NCBI RefSeq assembly: GCF_030013595.1
Contig: NZ_CP122768.1
DNA from: Escherichia coli
Lineage (GTDB): Bacteria > Pseudomonadota > Gammaproteobacteria > Enterobacterales > Enterobacteriaceae
Length of the DNA: 64,000 bases
Reading direction: 5' to 3' (one strand)
The position numbers were made by a program. This document shows positions 39,001 through 48,000 of this stretch, in pieces; position 1 is the stretch's first letter, and each line of letters starts with the position of its first letter.

Positions 39001-42000
39001 TATGTTTACAGCTACCAGCCAGACTTGTTCCAGGACTGTGGAAGTGCGAGCACTTAATCCGAAATGCCTGGTCTGCGCAGGGCGTTCAATCCAACTCGAC
39101 GAACATCTTCCAGTGTTGAATTAGCTGATAGCTCCTCCATTTTTTGTAAAGAACAGTTATACAGGCTTATTTGAACAGCTCTCTTTTTATTCAAACACAG
39201 CCAACAATACTCAGATGTAAGTATTTTTATATTCATGAATGGAGAGGCAAGGTCTGATGAATTTAATTACAGAACGTTCTTGAGCCATTGTCCTCTCCAG
39301 TTCATTAAAATAGTTACTACGTTAATTCACACCCAGCGCCTTATAAACAGCATCAACCGGGTCTGAGTAAAAACTCACCTGAAACTTGGTAAATAACTCT
39401 GCCGGAACCGTTGGAATATCCATAGCCGAGGACATCGGCAACAGAACCCGTTTTGCACCGCTGTCGAAGGCGAGCTGTAAACTGGCGGCAAGATCCTGCA
39501 CCGGGTTAATTACCCCACCAAGCGTCATACTGCCCAACACCACCATCTGTTCCTGCACCGGTTTTGCCAGCAATATCGAACATAAAGCGATAAGCGCAGC
39601 AAGACTGGTTGCGGTGCTTGGGCCAGTATTATGCAGTTCAACGACATGAAGGTGATATTCATGATCGGAGAATTTCGCGGCCGCGCTTACCCGATTCAAA
39701 TTGCCTTTGAAGTAATCGAAACCGACGCGGATAGCTTCTTTCGCGGAGGTATTTGAACCCAGACCCGATACACTATGCTTACCATTACCGGCAGTCATCT
39801 GTGTTTCAAAACGATACAGCCCGGTCATGCCGCTTTCTGCCTGAGTGACCAGATGCACAACACCCGGCTTTGGCATTCCGGCAGGAATAAGTTCGCTGCC
39901 GCCCTGTTCCGGTACGCTCACAAAAAACTCTTCCAGCGTTTCGTTGTCGATGTAGCTAAAGTTCACATCGAAGAACTCCAGACCGCCCAGTTTTTTAAGT
40001 TGCTCTTTCACGCGGCGACGAACTTCCATCGCATAGGTCAGGCAGACTCGCACATCTTCTTTGCTGTACGCGCCATCGGGATGCATGAGTTTTAACAACC
40101 CCGACACGGTACGTCGAACGGCAATAACGTCACGCTGGTTGAGGTTGTTACCCAGCTTAAAGAATTTATCAATCGCATCAGAGAAACTGCGTTTGCGCAT
40201 TTCGCGCATATATTCAGCGAGATAATCCGTAATCAGCCCGTAACGGTTGGTAAAAAATTCCGGGCGCATTTTGGGGATTTCCCAACCGGGAATATAGGCA
40301 TGAAAGCGGTCGAAAAATGCAGTATCAATCATCGCAGCCGGAAATGGCGCCAGCAAATGGCTGGTTTTAACGAGAGTCTCTACGCTTTGATTGATGTTGC
40401 CGACGAAAACCATCGACGCTTTACCTTCAATCGAATCTCTGCCGCGAGAGAAAGATCCTGACGCCATGTAATCTTTCATGATTTGCACGCCGTCTTTATC
40501 TTTGAAAGTGATCCCCGCGACTTCGTCGAACGCTACCACATCCCACATGCCAACCAGGCCGATCTGGCGACTGGCCATGTTGTAGAACAGGTTGGCAACG
40601 GTCGTTTGCCCGCCAGAAACTAACAGGGAGTTAGGAGAACACTCTTTATACACATGGCTTTTACCGGTGCCACGCGGCCCCAGCTCGCAAACGTTATAGT
40701 TGTTCTCCACGAACGGGATCATACGGGTGATAAGGTGCCATTTGGTGCGTTGCTCAATATTGGCGGGCTCCATACCCACTGAGCGCAGCAGCACATCGAT
40801 CCACTGATCACGGTTAAAGTGTTTACGCGCATCGAACACTTCTTCCATATCCATATTCGGCATCTGGATAGGCTTAAGCGTCATCAATGAGAAGGGCGAA
40901 GTCTTCTGCCCTTCTTCAAAGAAATAGTTGACGGTAATCATGCACCAGATACCGCCCGTTAGTAGCTTCTCGTTGTCTTTAACCATCTGCGAGGGCACCA
41001 GCGCGTCTTTGATGCCGAGGTTAGAAAGCTGGGCTTCGTAAACGTCTTTTTTCTGGTTCAGTTTCACCGACACTTTATCGATGATTTTGTACGAACCACG
41101 CTCGCGGATCAGCGACTTCACTTTCTCTGCTTCATCCGGGCGCACATAGTTATCAGCCAGAATACGCTTAACGTTTTGCAACCCTTGCTCGACCACGTCG
41201 TCATCGTCAGAGGCGCAGTACATGCCGAGCAGATACTCCAGCACATACACCGGGACGTTTGCCCCTTCCTTGAGTTGCTTGGTGAGATCTTTACGCACCA
41301 CACGACCAGCAAAATGCTGGTTCAGCAGGGCGTCCAGATCGTAACCCTCGGAGGCAATTTCCCCTGCGGATACGCCTGAAACAGGTAAATCATGATGGGT
41401 TTGCATATCGCCTCACTTAGAAGAAATCATCCTGGAACGCCAGATCGATAATGACCGGGTACTTCTGATACCCCGTTTCCGTTTGTGCGTCTTCCAGTAT
41501 CAACCAGTACTCATTGCGACGGTTGAAGCTAGCGCCAATCAGCTTCAGCGTAACTTCGCGTACGCGTTTTTCCATGGTGTTGTTATCACTGTCAAAGCTG
41601 ATGCGCTCTTTGCCCGAGACCACATTGTTGGCGTTGTCGACAATGTAAATGTTCAGGATACGCGGTTCATAAAGTTCGCCCACCGGATGCGTCTGCAACA
41701 GGCTCACTTTATCGATATTGTTCACCAGCTTAATCATGGGGTGGTAAGCGACAATATCCACCGGGCGGCGCTGTGGCTGTTTTTCTGCGGCGGTTTTTTG
41801 CAGGGCTTTTATCTGCAATACCGGAACGCAAACCTCCTGCAACATGGTGCCGCCATGAACGAAGCGCGCGCCGCCAGAGAAATGGAAGCGCTGGATCCCT
41901 TTCGGAATCAGGAACTCGCTGTTGTCGCTCACGCCTGCGGTATCTGCCACTTTTCCTTTCCAGCAAAAATCATCGGCGGGAAGCTGATGGCCGATAATAA

Positions 42001-45000: not shown

Positions 45001-48000
45001 ATTCTTATTTGGATATTTAAAGGTTGAATTCGAATCTAAAGCTATCTTTGAAATAGAAACATTCGGCTCTATCAAACCTAAAAGATTATATGTTTCTAAC
45101 AATTTTTGATTGTTTTTCGTTTCGAGTAATTGTGTTCTCACAACTCTATTCTGCCATGATTCTTTCATTTGATTGTAAGAATTTGATATTTTTTCATTTT
45201 TAAAATCTAATAAAGGATGATTTTTGAAAGACCACGAACTTTCATGTTCATCCCAATCTGATTTTGAAAGTTCTATGAGTTCGCGAACTTGAGATACAAT
45301 TTCCTGCTTATATTTTTCTATGACAGGCACTTTACCCACAGGGCCTTCATGGAAGTCTAGTGTCGGGGATAAAGCTTCAAGTATTTTTTCCGCTATTGGG
45401 CTATTCATTAATGCCAGCGCATAAAAAAGAGAATCTTGATTGTCACTAAAGCAAACAGAGCCTTTTGTTTCGAAAAGAAAACCCTCAGGGCTGTAGCGCA
45501 TGGATAAATATGATGATGAAATTGTAGACCAAGTAATTCCTTCCTTAAAATAATATCTTTCATTACGGATTACTGAGCCTTCGTAAGATTTCATTTCTGC
45601 ACCATTTTTATCCCAGTTCACAACCAAATCATTGTTTCCAAACCATTTTCTGTACGCCCCTCCTTTGTTGCAGGGAAACCATTTAGAAGCATTTTTGTCA
45701 TCCATGTATGAATTAAATTGGCTAAATTTTGTTAGGGAAATTTCACTCCATCTTCTCAAAAATAAATCATTATTACCTGTGGCAAATCCTTGTCTTGGTA
45801 CAGAGTAAACTTGAACTGGTGTACCCAATGTAAAGCAAGACAGTATTTTAGGGTTTACCCAATATGCAATAGGATAACCGGGTATTTTTTTGAAATCACT
45901 TGCAGTAGCATTTTTTAAACGCTCATTTTTTACAGGGAACTCTTCTGGGTATCCTTTTTCATTGATATCGTCATTTTCCGCATAGGAGAAGGAGCCCTTA
46001 TAAGATGGAGTATTCGTATTTCTAAATACAGTAGCATTTGTACCAAAAGCAATTTTCATAACTCCATTGCCCATATGCACCATAGTTTCGATTGTATAAT
46101 TAGTGAGGATATTTTTACGCATGTTTTCAAAACTGGAAAGGAACATCCAGGATTGCATTGTTACCATTGAGTTGAAACCAGCATTTTTCAACCAAAGGAA
46201 ACCACGCTCAATAAACATAGCAAACAAATCAGACTTACTATCTGGGAAATTATTTTTGGCAAACTCTTTCAGCTCACCATTCATTCCCTTACTGCCCATA
46301 TACGGCGGATTCGCCACCACTGCATCATATCGCTGCGCTAAAATCCACGCCTGCTGAATAAACGGAATAAACGCTTTCGCCGCCGCTTTCTGTTGGAAAT
46401 CGCCCTCCTGTTCCAGGCGATACAGCGCGTCCAGAAATACCTTCAGTTCCGCTTCTTCTTCCTGCGGTATCTGAATCAGTGAGCCCAGCGTTTTTGCATT
46501 CACAAAGCGTTTCAACGTGCGCATCAGCAGCTGATATTCTGCGCTGTCAGTTTGGGTTAACGCGGTATTTTCAGCAAACATATCCCCCATGCTGCCGGTT
46601 TGTACCTGCTGGTGGAAATTGAGCTGCTGCCAGAGTTTGGCGATATCCAGATGCAAACTTTCCTGCAAAGAAACAATATTCAGACGCACATCGGCTTTGT
46701 TGAATAAATCAGATTTTGGGTAAGTCTCCCCCGTAGCGGGTTGTGTTTTCAGGCAATACGCACGCTTTCAGGCATACCTGCTTTCGTCATTTTGTTCAGC
46801 GCTCGTACCAGGGCCATAGCCTCCGCAACCTGACCATCGTAGTCACGCAGCGTCAGTGAACCCCCGAACAGCTGTTTTACCCGGTACATCGCCGTTTCCG
46901 CTATCGAGCGACGGTTGTAATCTGTTGTCCATTTCCACCGCGCATTACTCCCGGTCATTCGCTGATTAGCCACTGCACGGTTACGGTCTGCATATTCACC
47001 GGGCCAGTAACCCGCACCTTTTCGGGGAGGGATAAGCGCGCTGATTTTCTTACGCCGCAGTTCATCGTGACATAGCCGGGTATCGTAAGCGCCATCGGCG
47101 GCGGCTGACCTGATTTTCCGGTGGGTTTGCCGGATTAACCCGGGGAAGGCCTCTGAGTCCGTAACGTTGTTCAGCGACAGGTCAGCGCAGATGATTTCAT
47201 GTGTTTTACTGTCAACGGCGAGATGCAGCTTACGCCAGATACGGCGGCGTTCCTGGCCATGCTTTTTGACTTTCCACTCGCCTTCACCGAAGACCTTCAG
47301 CCCGGTGGAATCAATTACCAGGTGTGCGATTTCACCCCGGGTGGGCGTTTTGAAACTGACATTAACCGACTTTGCCCGCCTGCTGACACAGCTGTAATCC
47401 GGGCAGCGTAGCGGAACGTTCATCAGAGAAAAAATGGAATCAATAAAGCCCTGCGCAGCCCGCAGGGTCAGCCGGAATACGCGTTTAATCACCAGAACGG
47501 TGGTGATGGCGAGATCAGAATAGCGCTGGGGCCTTCCTCGTGATGAAGGCGTTGCCGACTCATACCAGGCCTGAATCGCTTCATCATCCAGCCAGAAAGT
47601 GAGGGAGCCACGGTTGATGAGAGCTTTGTTGTAGGTGGACCAGTTGGTGATTCTGAACTTTTGCTTTGCCACGGAATGGTCTGTGTTGTCGGGAGGATGC
47701 GTGATCTGATCCTTCAACTCAGCAAAAGTTCGATTTATTCAACAAAGCCCCCCCAAACTGTCAGTCCATGCATCTTTCGTCCCTGGTGTGTTACATGAAC
47801 ACACGTCACTTTTATCTCCTGGCAGAATAAACAAATTTTACAGGTTTTTTCTTCCCCGGGATTCAGCCTCACTCCCTGCTTGCTCAGCAACCATCTGCTG
47901 TTGTTGCCGGGTATGACTGTCTGCATGGCATGCATTTGTTGTATCTGTGCTGACTGAATACGATAAAAATTTCTGGTTAATGACGATCGATATCATCTAT

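What the first reader, a model, noticed from the sequence alone, without database searches (positions are those of the whole stretch)
39322..47749. BREX remnant (pglX' - pglZ - brxL) truncated by an IS903-like element
brxL, pglZ and a PglX-like methyltransferase (NPPY motif) lie in the canonical BREX order, but brxA, brxB and brxC are absent. The pglX frame runs directly into the inverted repeat of a 1057-bp IS903-like element at 46693, and the IS has no matching 9-bp target duplication (acgcacatc vs cccccaaac), which suggests an IS-mediated adjacent deletion. The locus is therefore probably a decayed defence system, though the surviving PglZ-BrxL pair might retain some activity.
Basis: partly seen in the sequence, partly recalled or inferred. 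Interest (0 to 1): 0.6.

Follow-up and report, generated by a model that had tools for sequence, protein, structure and literature searches.

The report
Dead BREX remnant cut by IS903B
This is the back half of a well-known E. coli anti-phage system (type 1 BREX) whose front half was removed by an 11-kb deletion anchored on a neighbouring insertion sequence; it is an ordinary decayed defence locus, not a new system.

Summary
brxL (39322-41406), pglZ (41417-44014) and a 5'-truncated pglX (44191-46692) lie on the minus strand. They abut a 1057-bp IS903B (46693-47749) whose 9-bp flanks do not match. brxA, brxB and brxC are absent from the window.

E. coli strain B1 carries the same IS903B (1 nt different) at the identical right-hand junction in the same pheV island, and there the IS is followed by IS1A, three cargo genes and a complete brxA-brxB-brxC-pglX. 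The window lacks exactly 11,161 bp between the IS left end and pglX codon 382.

In other strains the same IS right junction is joined to at least seven other left-hand sequences. Three of these map as progressively larger deletions, the pattern expected of IS-anchored one-sided deletions.

The surviving PglX' keeps NPPY (motif IV) but has lost the SAM-binding GSG motif I. BrxB, BrxC and PglX are experimentally required for methylation and defence, so the system should be dead.

pglZ and brxL are intact. The same deletion allele occurs in at least six other assemblies, so it belongs to a lineage. Interest is low: a known system, a known IS and a known mechanism.

The parts
39322..41406 (-). brxL, intact (694 aa), Lon-related AAA+ BREX effector
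   Evidence: TIGR02653 scores 1343 bits over the full profile, and PADLOC assigns BrxL. It aligns to the full length of solved BrxL 8emc_A. There are no internal stops, and only 1 non-synonymous against 11-38 synonymous codon differences from orthologues in intact systems.
41417..44014 (-). pglZ (brxZ), intact (865 aa, TTG start as in RefSeq homologues; the mechanical ORF extends to a GTG at 44020)
   Evidence: TIGR02687 scores 1260 bits over profile 1-844 of 844. It aligns 1-865 to solved PglZ 9nv3_C. It carries one derived substitution, G493R, relative to all four relatives compared.
44015..44190 (-). pglX-pglZ intergenic spacer (176 bp); possible internal promoter region for pglZ-brxL (inferred only)
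   Evidence: It is conserved with intact systems as part of the 98.8% alignment. The consensus sigma-70 scan found no site on the minus strand here. [quoted passage not shown]
44191..46692 (-). pglX', 3' 2502 bp of pglX (codons 382-1214 plus stop). It keeps NPPY motif IV, the target recognition domain (TRD) and the C-terminal domain. It lacks the N-terminal helical bundle and SAM-binding motif I.
   Evidence: NF033452 matches profile 404-1210 of 1210. It aligns to 8c45_A residues 382-1225 and is 826/834 identical to the C-terminal part of the 1214-aa PglX of strain CDE2901. Pfam finds Eco57I only from model position 41 onward. Motif I lies in the missing part.
46692..46693 (.). Deletion junction: pglX codon 382 fused to the left inverted repeat of IS903B. 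11,161 bp are missing relative to strain B1.
   Evidence: blastn of the window against L004: 46128-46693 matches 23706-24271 and 46693-53500 matches 35433-42240. The junction is absent from 5,426 complete E. coli genomes but present in at least 6 other assemblies.
46693..47749 (-). IS903B (1057 bp). Inverted repeats at 46693-46710 and 47732-47749; transposase ORF 46749-47717, co-oriented with pglX'.
   Evidence: It differs by 1 nt from the IS903B at the same site in strains B1 and E89. The 9-bp flanks do not match.
47750..52360 (.). Conserved right-hand end of the island: outer membrane protein gene 48101-48841 (+), phosphoethanolamine transferase gene 49001-50500 (+), tyrosine integrase gene 50822-52087 (-), tRNA-Phe (pheV) 52285-52360 (-)
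   Evidence: 99.6% identical to strain B1 with RefSeq annotation. tRNA by ARAGORN and Rfam.
21862..21878 (.). Distal attachment-site repeat of the pheV island (CCCCCGGACTCGGAATCGAA-type; the exact 17-bp copy CCGGACTCGGAATCGAA of tRNA-Phe 3' end positions 52291-52307). It marks an island of about 30.4 kb that contains the remnant.
   Evidence: Exact 17-bp repeat found by script.

Best explanation
A pheV-integrated genomic island once carried a complete type 1 BREX system (brxA-brxB-brxC-pglX-pglZ-brxL). It also carried a resident IS903B about 5 kb upstream of brxA, next to the conserved outer-membrane-protein, phosphoethanolamine-transferase and integrase end of the island.

The IS903B transposase then acted on its own element. 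The left IS end attacked a target inside pglX, at the 9 bp ACGCACATC, by intramolecular transposition. The 11,161 bp between the IS and that target were lost. This is a classical 'adjacent deletion', which keeps the IS and its right junction and leaves no target duplication.

The lost DNA held IS1A, a DUF2254 gene fragment, a BCCT transporter gene, a hypothetical gene, brxA, brxB, brxC and the first 381 codons of pglX.

What remains cannot methylate DNA or exclude phage, for two reasons. PglX' has lost the SAM-binding half of its methyltransferase fold, together with its promoter and start codon. BrxB and BrxC, which are required partners, are gone.

pglZ and brxL are still intact because the deletion is evolutionarily recent, not necessarily because they are used.

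Shown: the gene content, the junction, the missing segment, the loss of motif I and the nested-deletion series in relatives. Inferred: the transposase-mediated route (as opposed to IS-IS recombination), the loss of function and the expression state.
For: Identity of the parts.

Ancestral arrangement: it has the same IS903B (1/1057 nt different) and an identical right junction in B1, HZ13 and 30COLEC. The exact missing block is 11,161 bp.

Flanks: no target duplication.

One fixed end, many other ends: 17 complete genomes share the right junction. In the 11 loci inspected plus the window there are 8 different left junctions. E89 maps to window position 4733 (glcA) and GDSC2BY4G/JX21CE8 map to window position 33349, so these are nested deletions.

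Literature on the mechanism: adjacent deletions are common for IS903 and are a standard cause of missing target duplications (PMC11708052).

Loss of function: PglX' starts at D382. Motif I (GSG 315-317) is lost and NPPY 509-512 is kept, with the same residue numbering as the solved Salmonella PglX (PMC11341690). Deleting brxB, brxC, brxX or brxZ abolishes both methylation and protection in E. coli BREX (PMC6326788). No BrxA, BrxB or BrxC is encoded in the window.

Recency: pglZ and brxL are intact with mostly synonymous differences from intact systems. The allele is restricted to a set of assemblies that are 99.84-99.99% identical over 8-14.5 kb and is absent from 5,426 complete genomes.
Against: The end product of a transposase-made adjacent deletion is identical in sequence to that of homologous recombination between the resident IS903B and a second, co-oriented copy inserted in pglX.

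IS-IS recombination clearly does occur at this site. Two IS variants about 90% identical to each other, and one mosaic IS, occupy the same junction in other strains.

Loss of function is inferred from published genetics of related systems, not measured here.

The rest of this genome was not available, so brxABC or another pglX elsewhere is not excluded.

The resident IS903B already lacks a target duplication in the 'intact' strains. The B1 arrangement is therefore itself rearranged and may not be the exact immediate ancestor.
Confidence: 0.62

Rival explanations
1. The deletion and the dead remnant are the same, but the deletion arose by RecA-dependent homologous recombination. A second IS903B copy first inserted into pglX in the same orientation, making the 9-bp duplication ACGCACATC. 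Recombination between it and the resident IS903B then excised the intervening 11 kb plus one IS copy.
For: The product is indistinguishable from an adjacent deletion. IS903B is abundant in E. coli, with 1,298 of 5,426 genomes carrying the IS left end and a median of 2 places per genome. Hybrid or mosaic IS903-family elements at exactly this junction in F163, CP61 and others show that IS-IS exchange occurs here.
Against: No genome among 5,426 complete ones, nor any of the 6 related assemblies, shows IS903B inside pglX with the 11 kb retained. The only difference from B1's IS copy (T at IS position 25) is polymorphic within the deletion-bearing lineage. It therefore arose after the deletion and is not a footprint of a donor copy. 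This route needs two events instead of one.
Confidence: 0.3
2. The remnant is not dead. PglZ (a metal-dependent nuclease in vitro) and BrxL (a DNA-binding AAA+ ring), perhaps with an internally initiated PglX' that still has its DNA-recognition domain, are expressed from an internal promoter or by read-through from the IS903B transposase gene. They provide a methylation-independent activity (defence, toxicity or regulation) that is maintained by selection.
For: pglZ and brxL are intact in all 7 copies of the allele seen. An independent remnant with the same gene content (pglX'-pglZ-brxL, cut by IS1A) exists in strain PI12. pglX' is co-oriented with the IS transposase gene, and no terminator-like site lies between them. 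PglZ has nuclease activity on its own in vitro (PMC12205998). B. cereus BREX transcribes pglZ-brxL as a separate operon, and a promoter region upstream of E. coli brxZ has been suggested.
Against: In E. coli BREX no single gene gives protection, and loss of brxB, brxC or brxX abolishes it. BrxL expressed alone was highly toxic, which argues against strong expression here. Intactness is expected anyway for a recent deletion, since the lineage differs by only 1-6 nt per roughly 12 kb. The few post-deletion changes in pglZ include a non-synonymous one, G493R. Half-systems are rare: 310 genomes hold pglZ-brxL and 309 hold brxABC, which does not suggest a selected stand-alone module.
Confidence: 0.05
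3. The island was acquired already carrying only pglX'-pglZ-brxL (a partial system transferred horizontally), and the IS903B inserted next to it later. On this view no deletion occurred at this chromosomal site.
For: Related islands sit at pheV, pheU and leuX, so the island or parts of it move. The pglX' 5' end is mosaic relative to PI12 (93% against 99.7%).
Against: The IS903B right junction and 6.8 kb to its right are 99.6% identical to strains with the complete system. The left side up to the breakpoint is collinear with them. An independent insertion would have produced a 9-bp duplication, and there is none. The breakpoint is exactly the IS end.
Confidence: 0.03

Closest known systems
Type 1 BREX of E. 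coli (E. coli HS BREX, brxA-brxB-brxC-brxX/pglX-brxZ/pglZ-brxL; Gordeeva et al. 2019, PMC6326788) and of Salmonella D23580 (Went et al. 2024, PMC11341690)
   Same: pglZ, brxL and the retained part of pglX are full-score matches to the BREX-1 models, in the canonical order and orientation. PglX' aligns to solved E. coli BrxX (9ewz_C, residues 383-1205) and to Salmonella PglX (8c45_A, residues 382-1225). PglZ aligns to 9nv3_C and BrxL to 8emc_A over their full lengths. Near-identical complete systems (97-99% DNA identity) sit in the same island in other E. coli.
   Different: brxA, brxB, brxC and codons 1-381 of pglX, including SAM-binding motif I, are missing. By the published gene requirements the locus cannot methylate or defend.
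IS903B (IS5 family, IS903 group) and its adjacent deletions
   Same: Length of 1057 bp, 18-bp inverted repeats and an IS5-family DDE transposase. RefSeq annotates the identical element as IS903B. The missing 9-bp duplication together with a one-sided deletion is the described behaviour of IS903 (PMC11708052).
   Different: Nothing unusual. The only private feature is a C-to-T change at IS position 25, which is polymorphic within the lineage.
BREX-1 remnant of E. coli strain PI12 (NZ_CP074005.1, at pheU)
   Same: The same surviving gene set, pglX'-pglZ-brxL, with pglZ-brxL 99.9% identical to the window. It too is cut at the 5' side of pglX by an insertion sequence.
   Different: It is cut by IS1A rather than IS903B, 215 bp further upstream, so PglX' starts at L310, directly at motif I. 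It lies at a different tRNA-Phe gene and lacks the outer-membrane-protein and phosphoethanolamine-transferase module. It is therefore an independent event.

Membership tests
Type 1 BREX system (functional, six-gene) | PglZ (alkaline-phosphatase-fold protein), full length | tested here: met
   TIGR02687 scores 1260 bits against a cutoff of 270, over profile 1-844 of 844. Full-length alignment to 9nv3_C.
Type 1 BREX system (functional, six-gene) | BrxL (Lon-related AAA+ protein), full length | tested here: met
   TIGR02653 scores 1343 bits against a cutoff of 628. Full-length alignment to 8emc_A.
Type 1 BREX system (functional, six-gene) | PglX methyltransferase with both SAM-binding motif I (GxG) and catalytic motif IV (NPPY) | tested here: not met
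   Only residues 382-1214 are encoded. NPPY is present. Motif I (VLDPACGSG, 309-317 in the full-length relative) is deleted.
Type 1 BREX system (functional, six-gene) | BrxC (P-loop ATPase) encoded in the cluster | tested here: not met
   No tblastn hit in the window. It lies in the 11,161-bp block missing relative to strain B1.
Type 1 BREX system (functional, six-gene) | BrxA and BrxB encoded in the cluster | tested here: not met
   No tblastn hit in the window. Both lie in the missing block.
Type 1 BREX system (functional, six-gene) | BREX-dependent m6A methylation of a 6-bp non-palindromic motif, and phage exclusion | not testable with these tools
   This needs a SMRT or nanopore methylome and phage assays.
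Type 1 BREX system (functional, six-gene) | No complementing brxABC/pglX elsewhere in the same genome | not tested
   Only the 64-kb window was available. The whole assembly that carries the allele (GCA_900448395.1) could not be scanned here.
IS903B (IS5 family, IS903 group) | Element of about 1057 bp with 18-bp terminal inverted repeats and a single DDE transposase ORF | tested here: met
   1 nt different from the RefSeq-annotated IS903B in strain B1.
IS903B (IS5 family, IS903 group) | 9-bp direct target duplication flanking the element | tested here: not met
   ACGCACATC against CCCCCAAAC. This is explained by the deletion and does not argue against the identity of the IS.

The most novel reading that the evidence does not exclude
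The PglZ-BrxL pair, possibly with a PglX' fragment that retains the DNA-recognition domain, is expressed. It retains a methylation-independent activity, for example PglZ nuclease plus BrxL DNA loading acting on incoming DNA, or a regulatory or toxic role. On this reading the order of BREX decay (pglX/brxABC lost first, pglZ-brxL kept) is constrained by toxin-antitoxin-like dependencies between BREX components rather than by where the IS elements happen to lie. Two independent remnants with the same content (this allele and PI12) and the intact pglZ/brxL in all copies do not exclude this.
Probability: 0.05. Interest if true: 0.55.

Novelty: already known. Interest (0 to 1): 0.15.

Why it matters
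There is little significance beyond annotation. The locus should be called a BREX-1 remnant or pseudogene, not a defence system. Automated defence-system finders that count PglZ or BrxL hits would over-call it.

It is a clean natural example of how insertion sequences erode defence islands. One resident IS903B has produced a nested series of one-sided deletions in different E. coli lineages. These run from 11 kb (this allele) to loss of the whole island and neighbouring chromosomal genes.

If the surviving pglZ-brxL pair were shown to be active it would bear on the still-unresolved BREX effector mechanism. Nothing here indicates that it is.

Tried and rejected
- I searched the junction (window 46443-46942) against 5,426 complete E. 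coli genomes and found no genome with it. I first read this as a private allele. The exact-protein look-up then found the same allele in at least 6 other assemblies, so 'private' was rejected in favour of lineage-specific.
- I tested whether the single IS difference from strain B1 (T at IS position 25, rare: 4 of 1,755 records) marks a second donor IS copy. I rejected this because the site is polymorphic among isolates that share the deletion.
- I looked for a target duplication partner of CCCCCAAAC among 8 different left junctions and found none. The original insertion site is therefore not recoverable from these strains.
- The consensus promoter and terminator scan of 39000-48200 found fewer promoter-like sites than shuffled controls and none in the pglX-pglZ spacer on the coding strand. 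This is uninformative about expression.
- The Rfam scan of 36000-53000 found only tRNA-Phe.
- I tried to gauge how common half-systems are by comparing genome counts for pglZ-brxL (310) and brxABC (309). The counts are nearly equal, but the tool gives no per-genome cross-tabulation, so the number of remnants is not known exactly. PI12 is one.
- Counts of synonymous against non-synonymous differences are too small to distinguish relaxed from purifying selection after the deletion.
- In-frame start candidates in pglX' have no convincing Shine-Dalgarno sequence. This was not pursued further.

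
Full report
**What is in the sequence**

The region 39322-47749 contains three co-oriented minus-strand ORFs followed by an insertion sequence.

- The 694-aa product of 39322-41406 is a full-length BrxL. TIGR02653 scores 1343 bits over profile 2-675 of 675, PADLOC assigns BrxL, and it aligns to the full length of the solved BrxL 8emc_A.
- The product of 41417-44014 is a full-length type A BREX-1 PglZ of 865 aa, using the TTG start of the RefSeq homologues. TIGR02687 scores 1260 bits over profile 1-844 of 844, and it aligns 1-865 to solved PglZ 9nv3_C.
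- The third ORF, the pglX frame 44191-46692, matches the BREX-1 PglX model only from profile position 404 to 1210 of 1210. It aligns to residues 382-1225 of the solved Salmonella PglX 8c45_A and to residues 383-1205 of E. coli BrxX 9ewz_C.
- Directly abutting it, 46693-47749 is a 1057-bp element with perfect 18-bp inverted repeats and an IS5-family transposase ORF at 46749-47717. RefSeq annotates the same element as IS903B.
- The 9-bp flanks are ACGCACATC and CCCCCAAAC, so there is no target duplication.
- BrxA, BrxB and BrxC of an intact relative find nothing in the window by tblastn.

**Context**

The locus lies in an island of about 30.4 kb. The island is bounded by an exact 17-bp repeat of the 3' end of tRNA-Phe, at 21862-21878 and 52291-52307, and is integrated at pheV. 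The tRNA gene is at 52285-52360, with yqgA and speC beyond it.

The integrase gene (50822-52087), a phosphoethanolamine transferase gene (49001-50500) and an outer membrane protein gene (48101-48841) lie between the tRNA and the IS.

**What happened**

E. coli strain B1 (NZ_CP157955.1) has the same island at pheV. Its IS903B differs at 1 of 1057 positions and has an identical right junction. The 6.8 kb that include the IS and the sequence to its right are 99.6% identical to the window.

To the left of the IS, B1 has IS1A, a truncated DUF2254 gene, a BCCT transporter gene, a hypothetical gene, brxA, brxB, brxC and a full-length pglX, followed by pglZ and brxL. HZ13 (pheV) and 30COLEC (pheU) have the same arrangement.

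Aligning the window to B1 shows collinearity up to pglX, resuming exactly at the IS left end. The window lacks B1 locus positions 24272-35432, which is 11,161 bp. The deletion thus has one end precisely at the IS terminus and the other inside pglX.

**The same IS end has done this repeatedly**

Seventeen of 5,426 complete genomes share the IS-to-CCCCCAAAC right junction. In the eleven loci inspected plus the window there are eight different sequences joined to the left IS end, and none forms a target duplication.

Where the left flank can be placed on this window's map, the junctions form a nested series:

- pglX codon 382, in this allele.
- Window position 33349, in GDSC2BY4G and JX21CE8, which have lost all of BREX and its neighbours.
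- Window position 4733, inside glcA, in E89, which has lost the rest of the island plus the yghJ-gsp region.

One fixed end with many variable ends is the classical picture of IS-anchored one-sided deletions. Adjacent deletions are described as common for IS903 and as a standard reason for missing target duplications (PMC11708052).

**Which molecular route**

Sequence cannot distinguish a transposase-made adjacent deletion from recombination between the resident IS903B and a second, co-oriented copy inserted in pglX.

IS-IS exchange does occur at this site. A 1056-bp IS903-family variant about 90% identical to IS903B occupies the same junction in five strains, and F163 carries a mosaic element.

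The only difference between the window's IS and B1's, T at IS position 25 (window position 46717), looked like a possible footprint of a donor copy because it is rare, being found in 4 of 1,755 records. However, it is polymorphic among isolates that share the deletion, so it arose afterwards.

No two-copy intermediate was found. I put adjacent deletion at about 0.6 and IS-IS recombination at about 0.3. That the deletion is IS903B-anchored is close to certain.

**Functional consequence**

The closest full-length PglX is the 1214-aa protein of strain CDE2901, which is 826/834 identical over the retained part. It has motif I, VLDPACGSG, at 309-317 and NPPY at 509-512. [quoted passage not shown]

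The remnant begins at D382. It therefore keeps NPPY, the target recognition domain (TRD) and the C-terminal domain, but lacks the helical bundle and the SAM-binding part of the Rossmann fold. Pfam confirms this: it finds the first part of the methyltransferase models only in the missing N-terminal segment. The remnant has also lost its start codon and promoter, and the in-frame start candidates have no convincing ribosome-binding site.

In E. coli BREX, deletion of brxB, brxC, brxX or brxZ abolishes both methylation and protection. BrxX alone does not methylate, and no single gene protects (PMC6326788). The locus should therefore be inactive for both BREX phenotypes. This is an inference from published genetics, not a measurement.

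**State of the survivors**

pglZ and brxL have no stops or frameshifts. Their differences from orthologues in intact systems are mostly synonymous: brxL has 11-38 synonymous against 1 non-synonymous codon differences, and pglZ has 27-46 against 8-12.

The exact 832-aa PglX' ORF product, in the same IS, pglX', pglZ, brxL context, occurs on at least 11 contigs. Six were retrieved: GCA_900448395.1, GCA_021646805.1, GCA_021649105.1 and three read-set assemblies. They are 99.84-99.99% identical to the window over 8-14.5 kb, and all have intact pglZ and brxL. The allele therefore characterises a shallow lineage and is absent from the 5,426 complete genomes.

The changes that differ among copies of the allele, and so post-date the deletion, are one synonymous and one non-synonymous change in pglZ. 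The non-synonymous change, G493R, is derived in the window, and R occurs naturally at this position in a distant solved homologue. There is also the IS position 25 change and one change in the transferase gene. These are too few to test for selection. Intactness is what a recent deletion predicts.

**Could the remnant still do something?**

Points in favour:

- PglZ is a metal-dependent nuclease in vitro (PMC12205998).
- B. cereus BREX transcribes pglZ-brxL separately, and a promoter region upstream of E. coli brxZ has been suggested.
- pglX' is co-oriented with the IS transposase gene, with no terminator-like site between them.
- An independent remnant with the same gene content exists in strain PI12, cut by IS1A at PglX residue L310.

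Points against:

- The published gene requirements.
- The high toxicity of BrxL expressed alone.
- The near equality of genomes holding pglZ-brxL (310) and brxABC (309), which does not suggest a selected stand-alone module.

The published observation that BrxC plus PglX is toxic unless buffered by the other components offers a plausible reason why decay would remove pglX/brxC first. The position of the IS elements on that side of the cluster explains it equally well. I give residual activity about 5%.

**Comparison with the known, and verdict**

The genes are members of type 1 BREX by every sequence criterion. The locus fails the membership test for a functional system on three defining features: BrxC, BrxA/BrxB, and an intact PglX motif I. 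The IS is IS903B, and its missing duplication is explained by the deletion.

Nothing here is new in kind. It is a known defence system inactivated by a known IS through a known mechanism.

- PglX' is catalytically crippled, not merely shortened.
- The deletion removed 11.2 kb, including non-BREX cargo.
- The allele is lineage-wide.

Interest is low (0.15).

Noticed in passing
L014 (NZ_CP074005.1, strain PI12) 23192-26677; compare window 44191-46692: This is a second, independent BREX-1 remnant with the same surviving genes (pglX'-pglZ-brxL). Here pglX is cut by IS1A 215 bp further upstream, so PglX' begins at L310, directly at motif I. It lies at pheU. Its pglZ-brxL is 99.9% identical to the window, but the 5' end of pglX' is only 93% identical, so the region is mosaic.
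   Followed up: partly
window 46693-52360; loci L003-L013: The module of IS903-family element, outer membrane protein gene, phosphoethanolamine transferase gene and integrase gene is a conserved island end found at pheV, pheU and leuX. The IS left neighbour differs in almost every strain (8 junctions, none with a target duplication). Two IS variants (1057-bp IS903B and a roughly 90% identical 1056-bp form) and one mosaic (F163) occupy the same site. Even the 'intact' strains lack a target duplication, so an older rearrangement preceded all of them.
   Followed up: partly
window 44938-46128 (within pglX'): The part of pglX encoding the target-recognition region is highly divergent between strains that are otherwise 98-99% identical across the locus. 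There is no megablast alignment to B1 or Z1323CEC0010 here, and PglX is only 63.7% identical in amino acids to B1 over residues 382-1223. It is 98.8% identical to strain CDE2901. This looks like swapping of specificity-domain alleles among E. coli BREX-1 systems.
   Followed up: no
window 42538 (pglZ codon 493) and 46717 (IS903B position 25): Two sites are polymorphic among isolates that share the deletion. PglZ G493R is derived in the window and in L016, while all intact relatives have G. The C-to-T change in the IS is found in the window, L016 and L017. Both changes post-date the deletion.
   Followed up: yes
window 21862-21878 and 52291-52307: An exact 17-bp direct repeat (CCGGACTCGGAATCGAA) of the tRNA-Phe 3' end delimits a pheV island of about 30.4 kb. 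By collinearity with annotated relatives, its left part carries DUF4942, a CbtA/YeeU toxin-antitoxin pair, an antirestriction protein gene, an Ag43-type autotransporter gene (27026-29947), a GTPase gene, hha, an inovirus Gp2-like gene and two zinc-ribbon genes.
   Followed up: partly
window 33346-33572: A short IS1 fragment lies inside the island and matches an IS1 pseudogene in strains B1 and Z1323CEC0010. In GDSC2BY4G and JX21CE8 the IS903-family element is joined at about this point (window 33349).
   Followed up: no
window 49001-50500: A 499-aa phosphoethanolamine transferase (sulfatase-domain protein, EptA/MCR-like enzyme class) and an adjacent 246-aa beta-barrel outer membrane protein are conserved cargo next to the island integrase. 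I did not examine any relation to polymyxin resistance.
   Followed up: no
window 1-21708: The left third of the window is chromosomal backbone. The glcA 3' end maps at 3234-4733, from strain E89's annotated flank, and yghD/gspM maps at 21172-21708, by collinearity with Z1323CEC0010. From ORF sizes the stretch between them looks like yghJ/sslE (1524 aa), pppA and the gsp type II secretion operon. I did not verify this with profiles.
   Followed up: no
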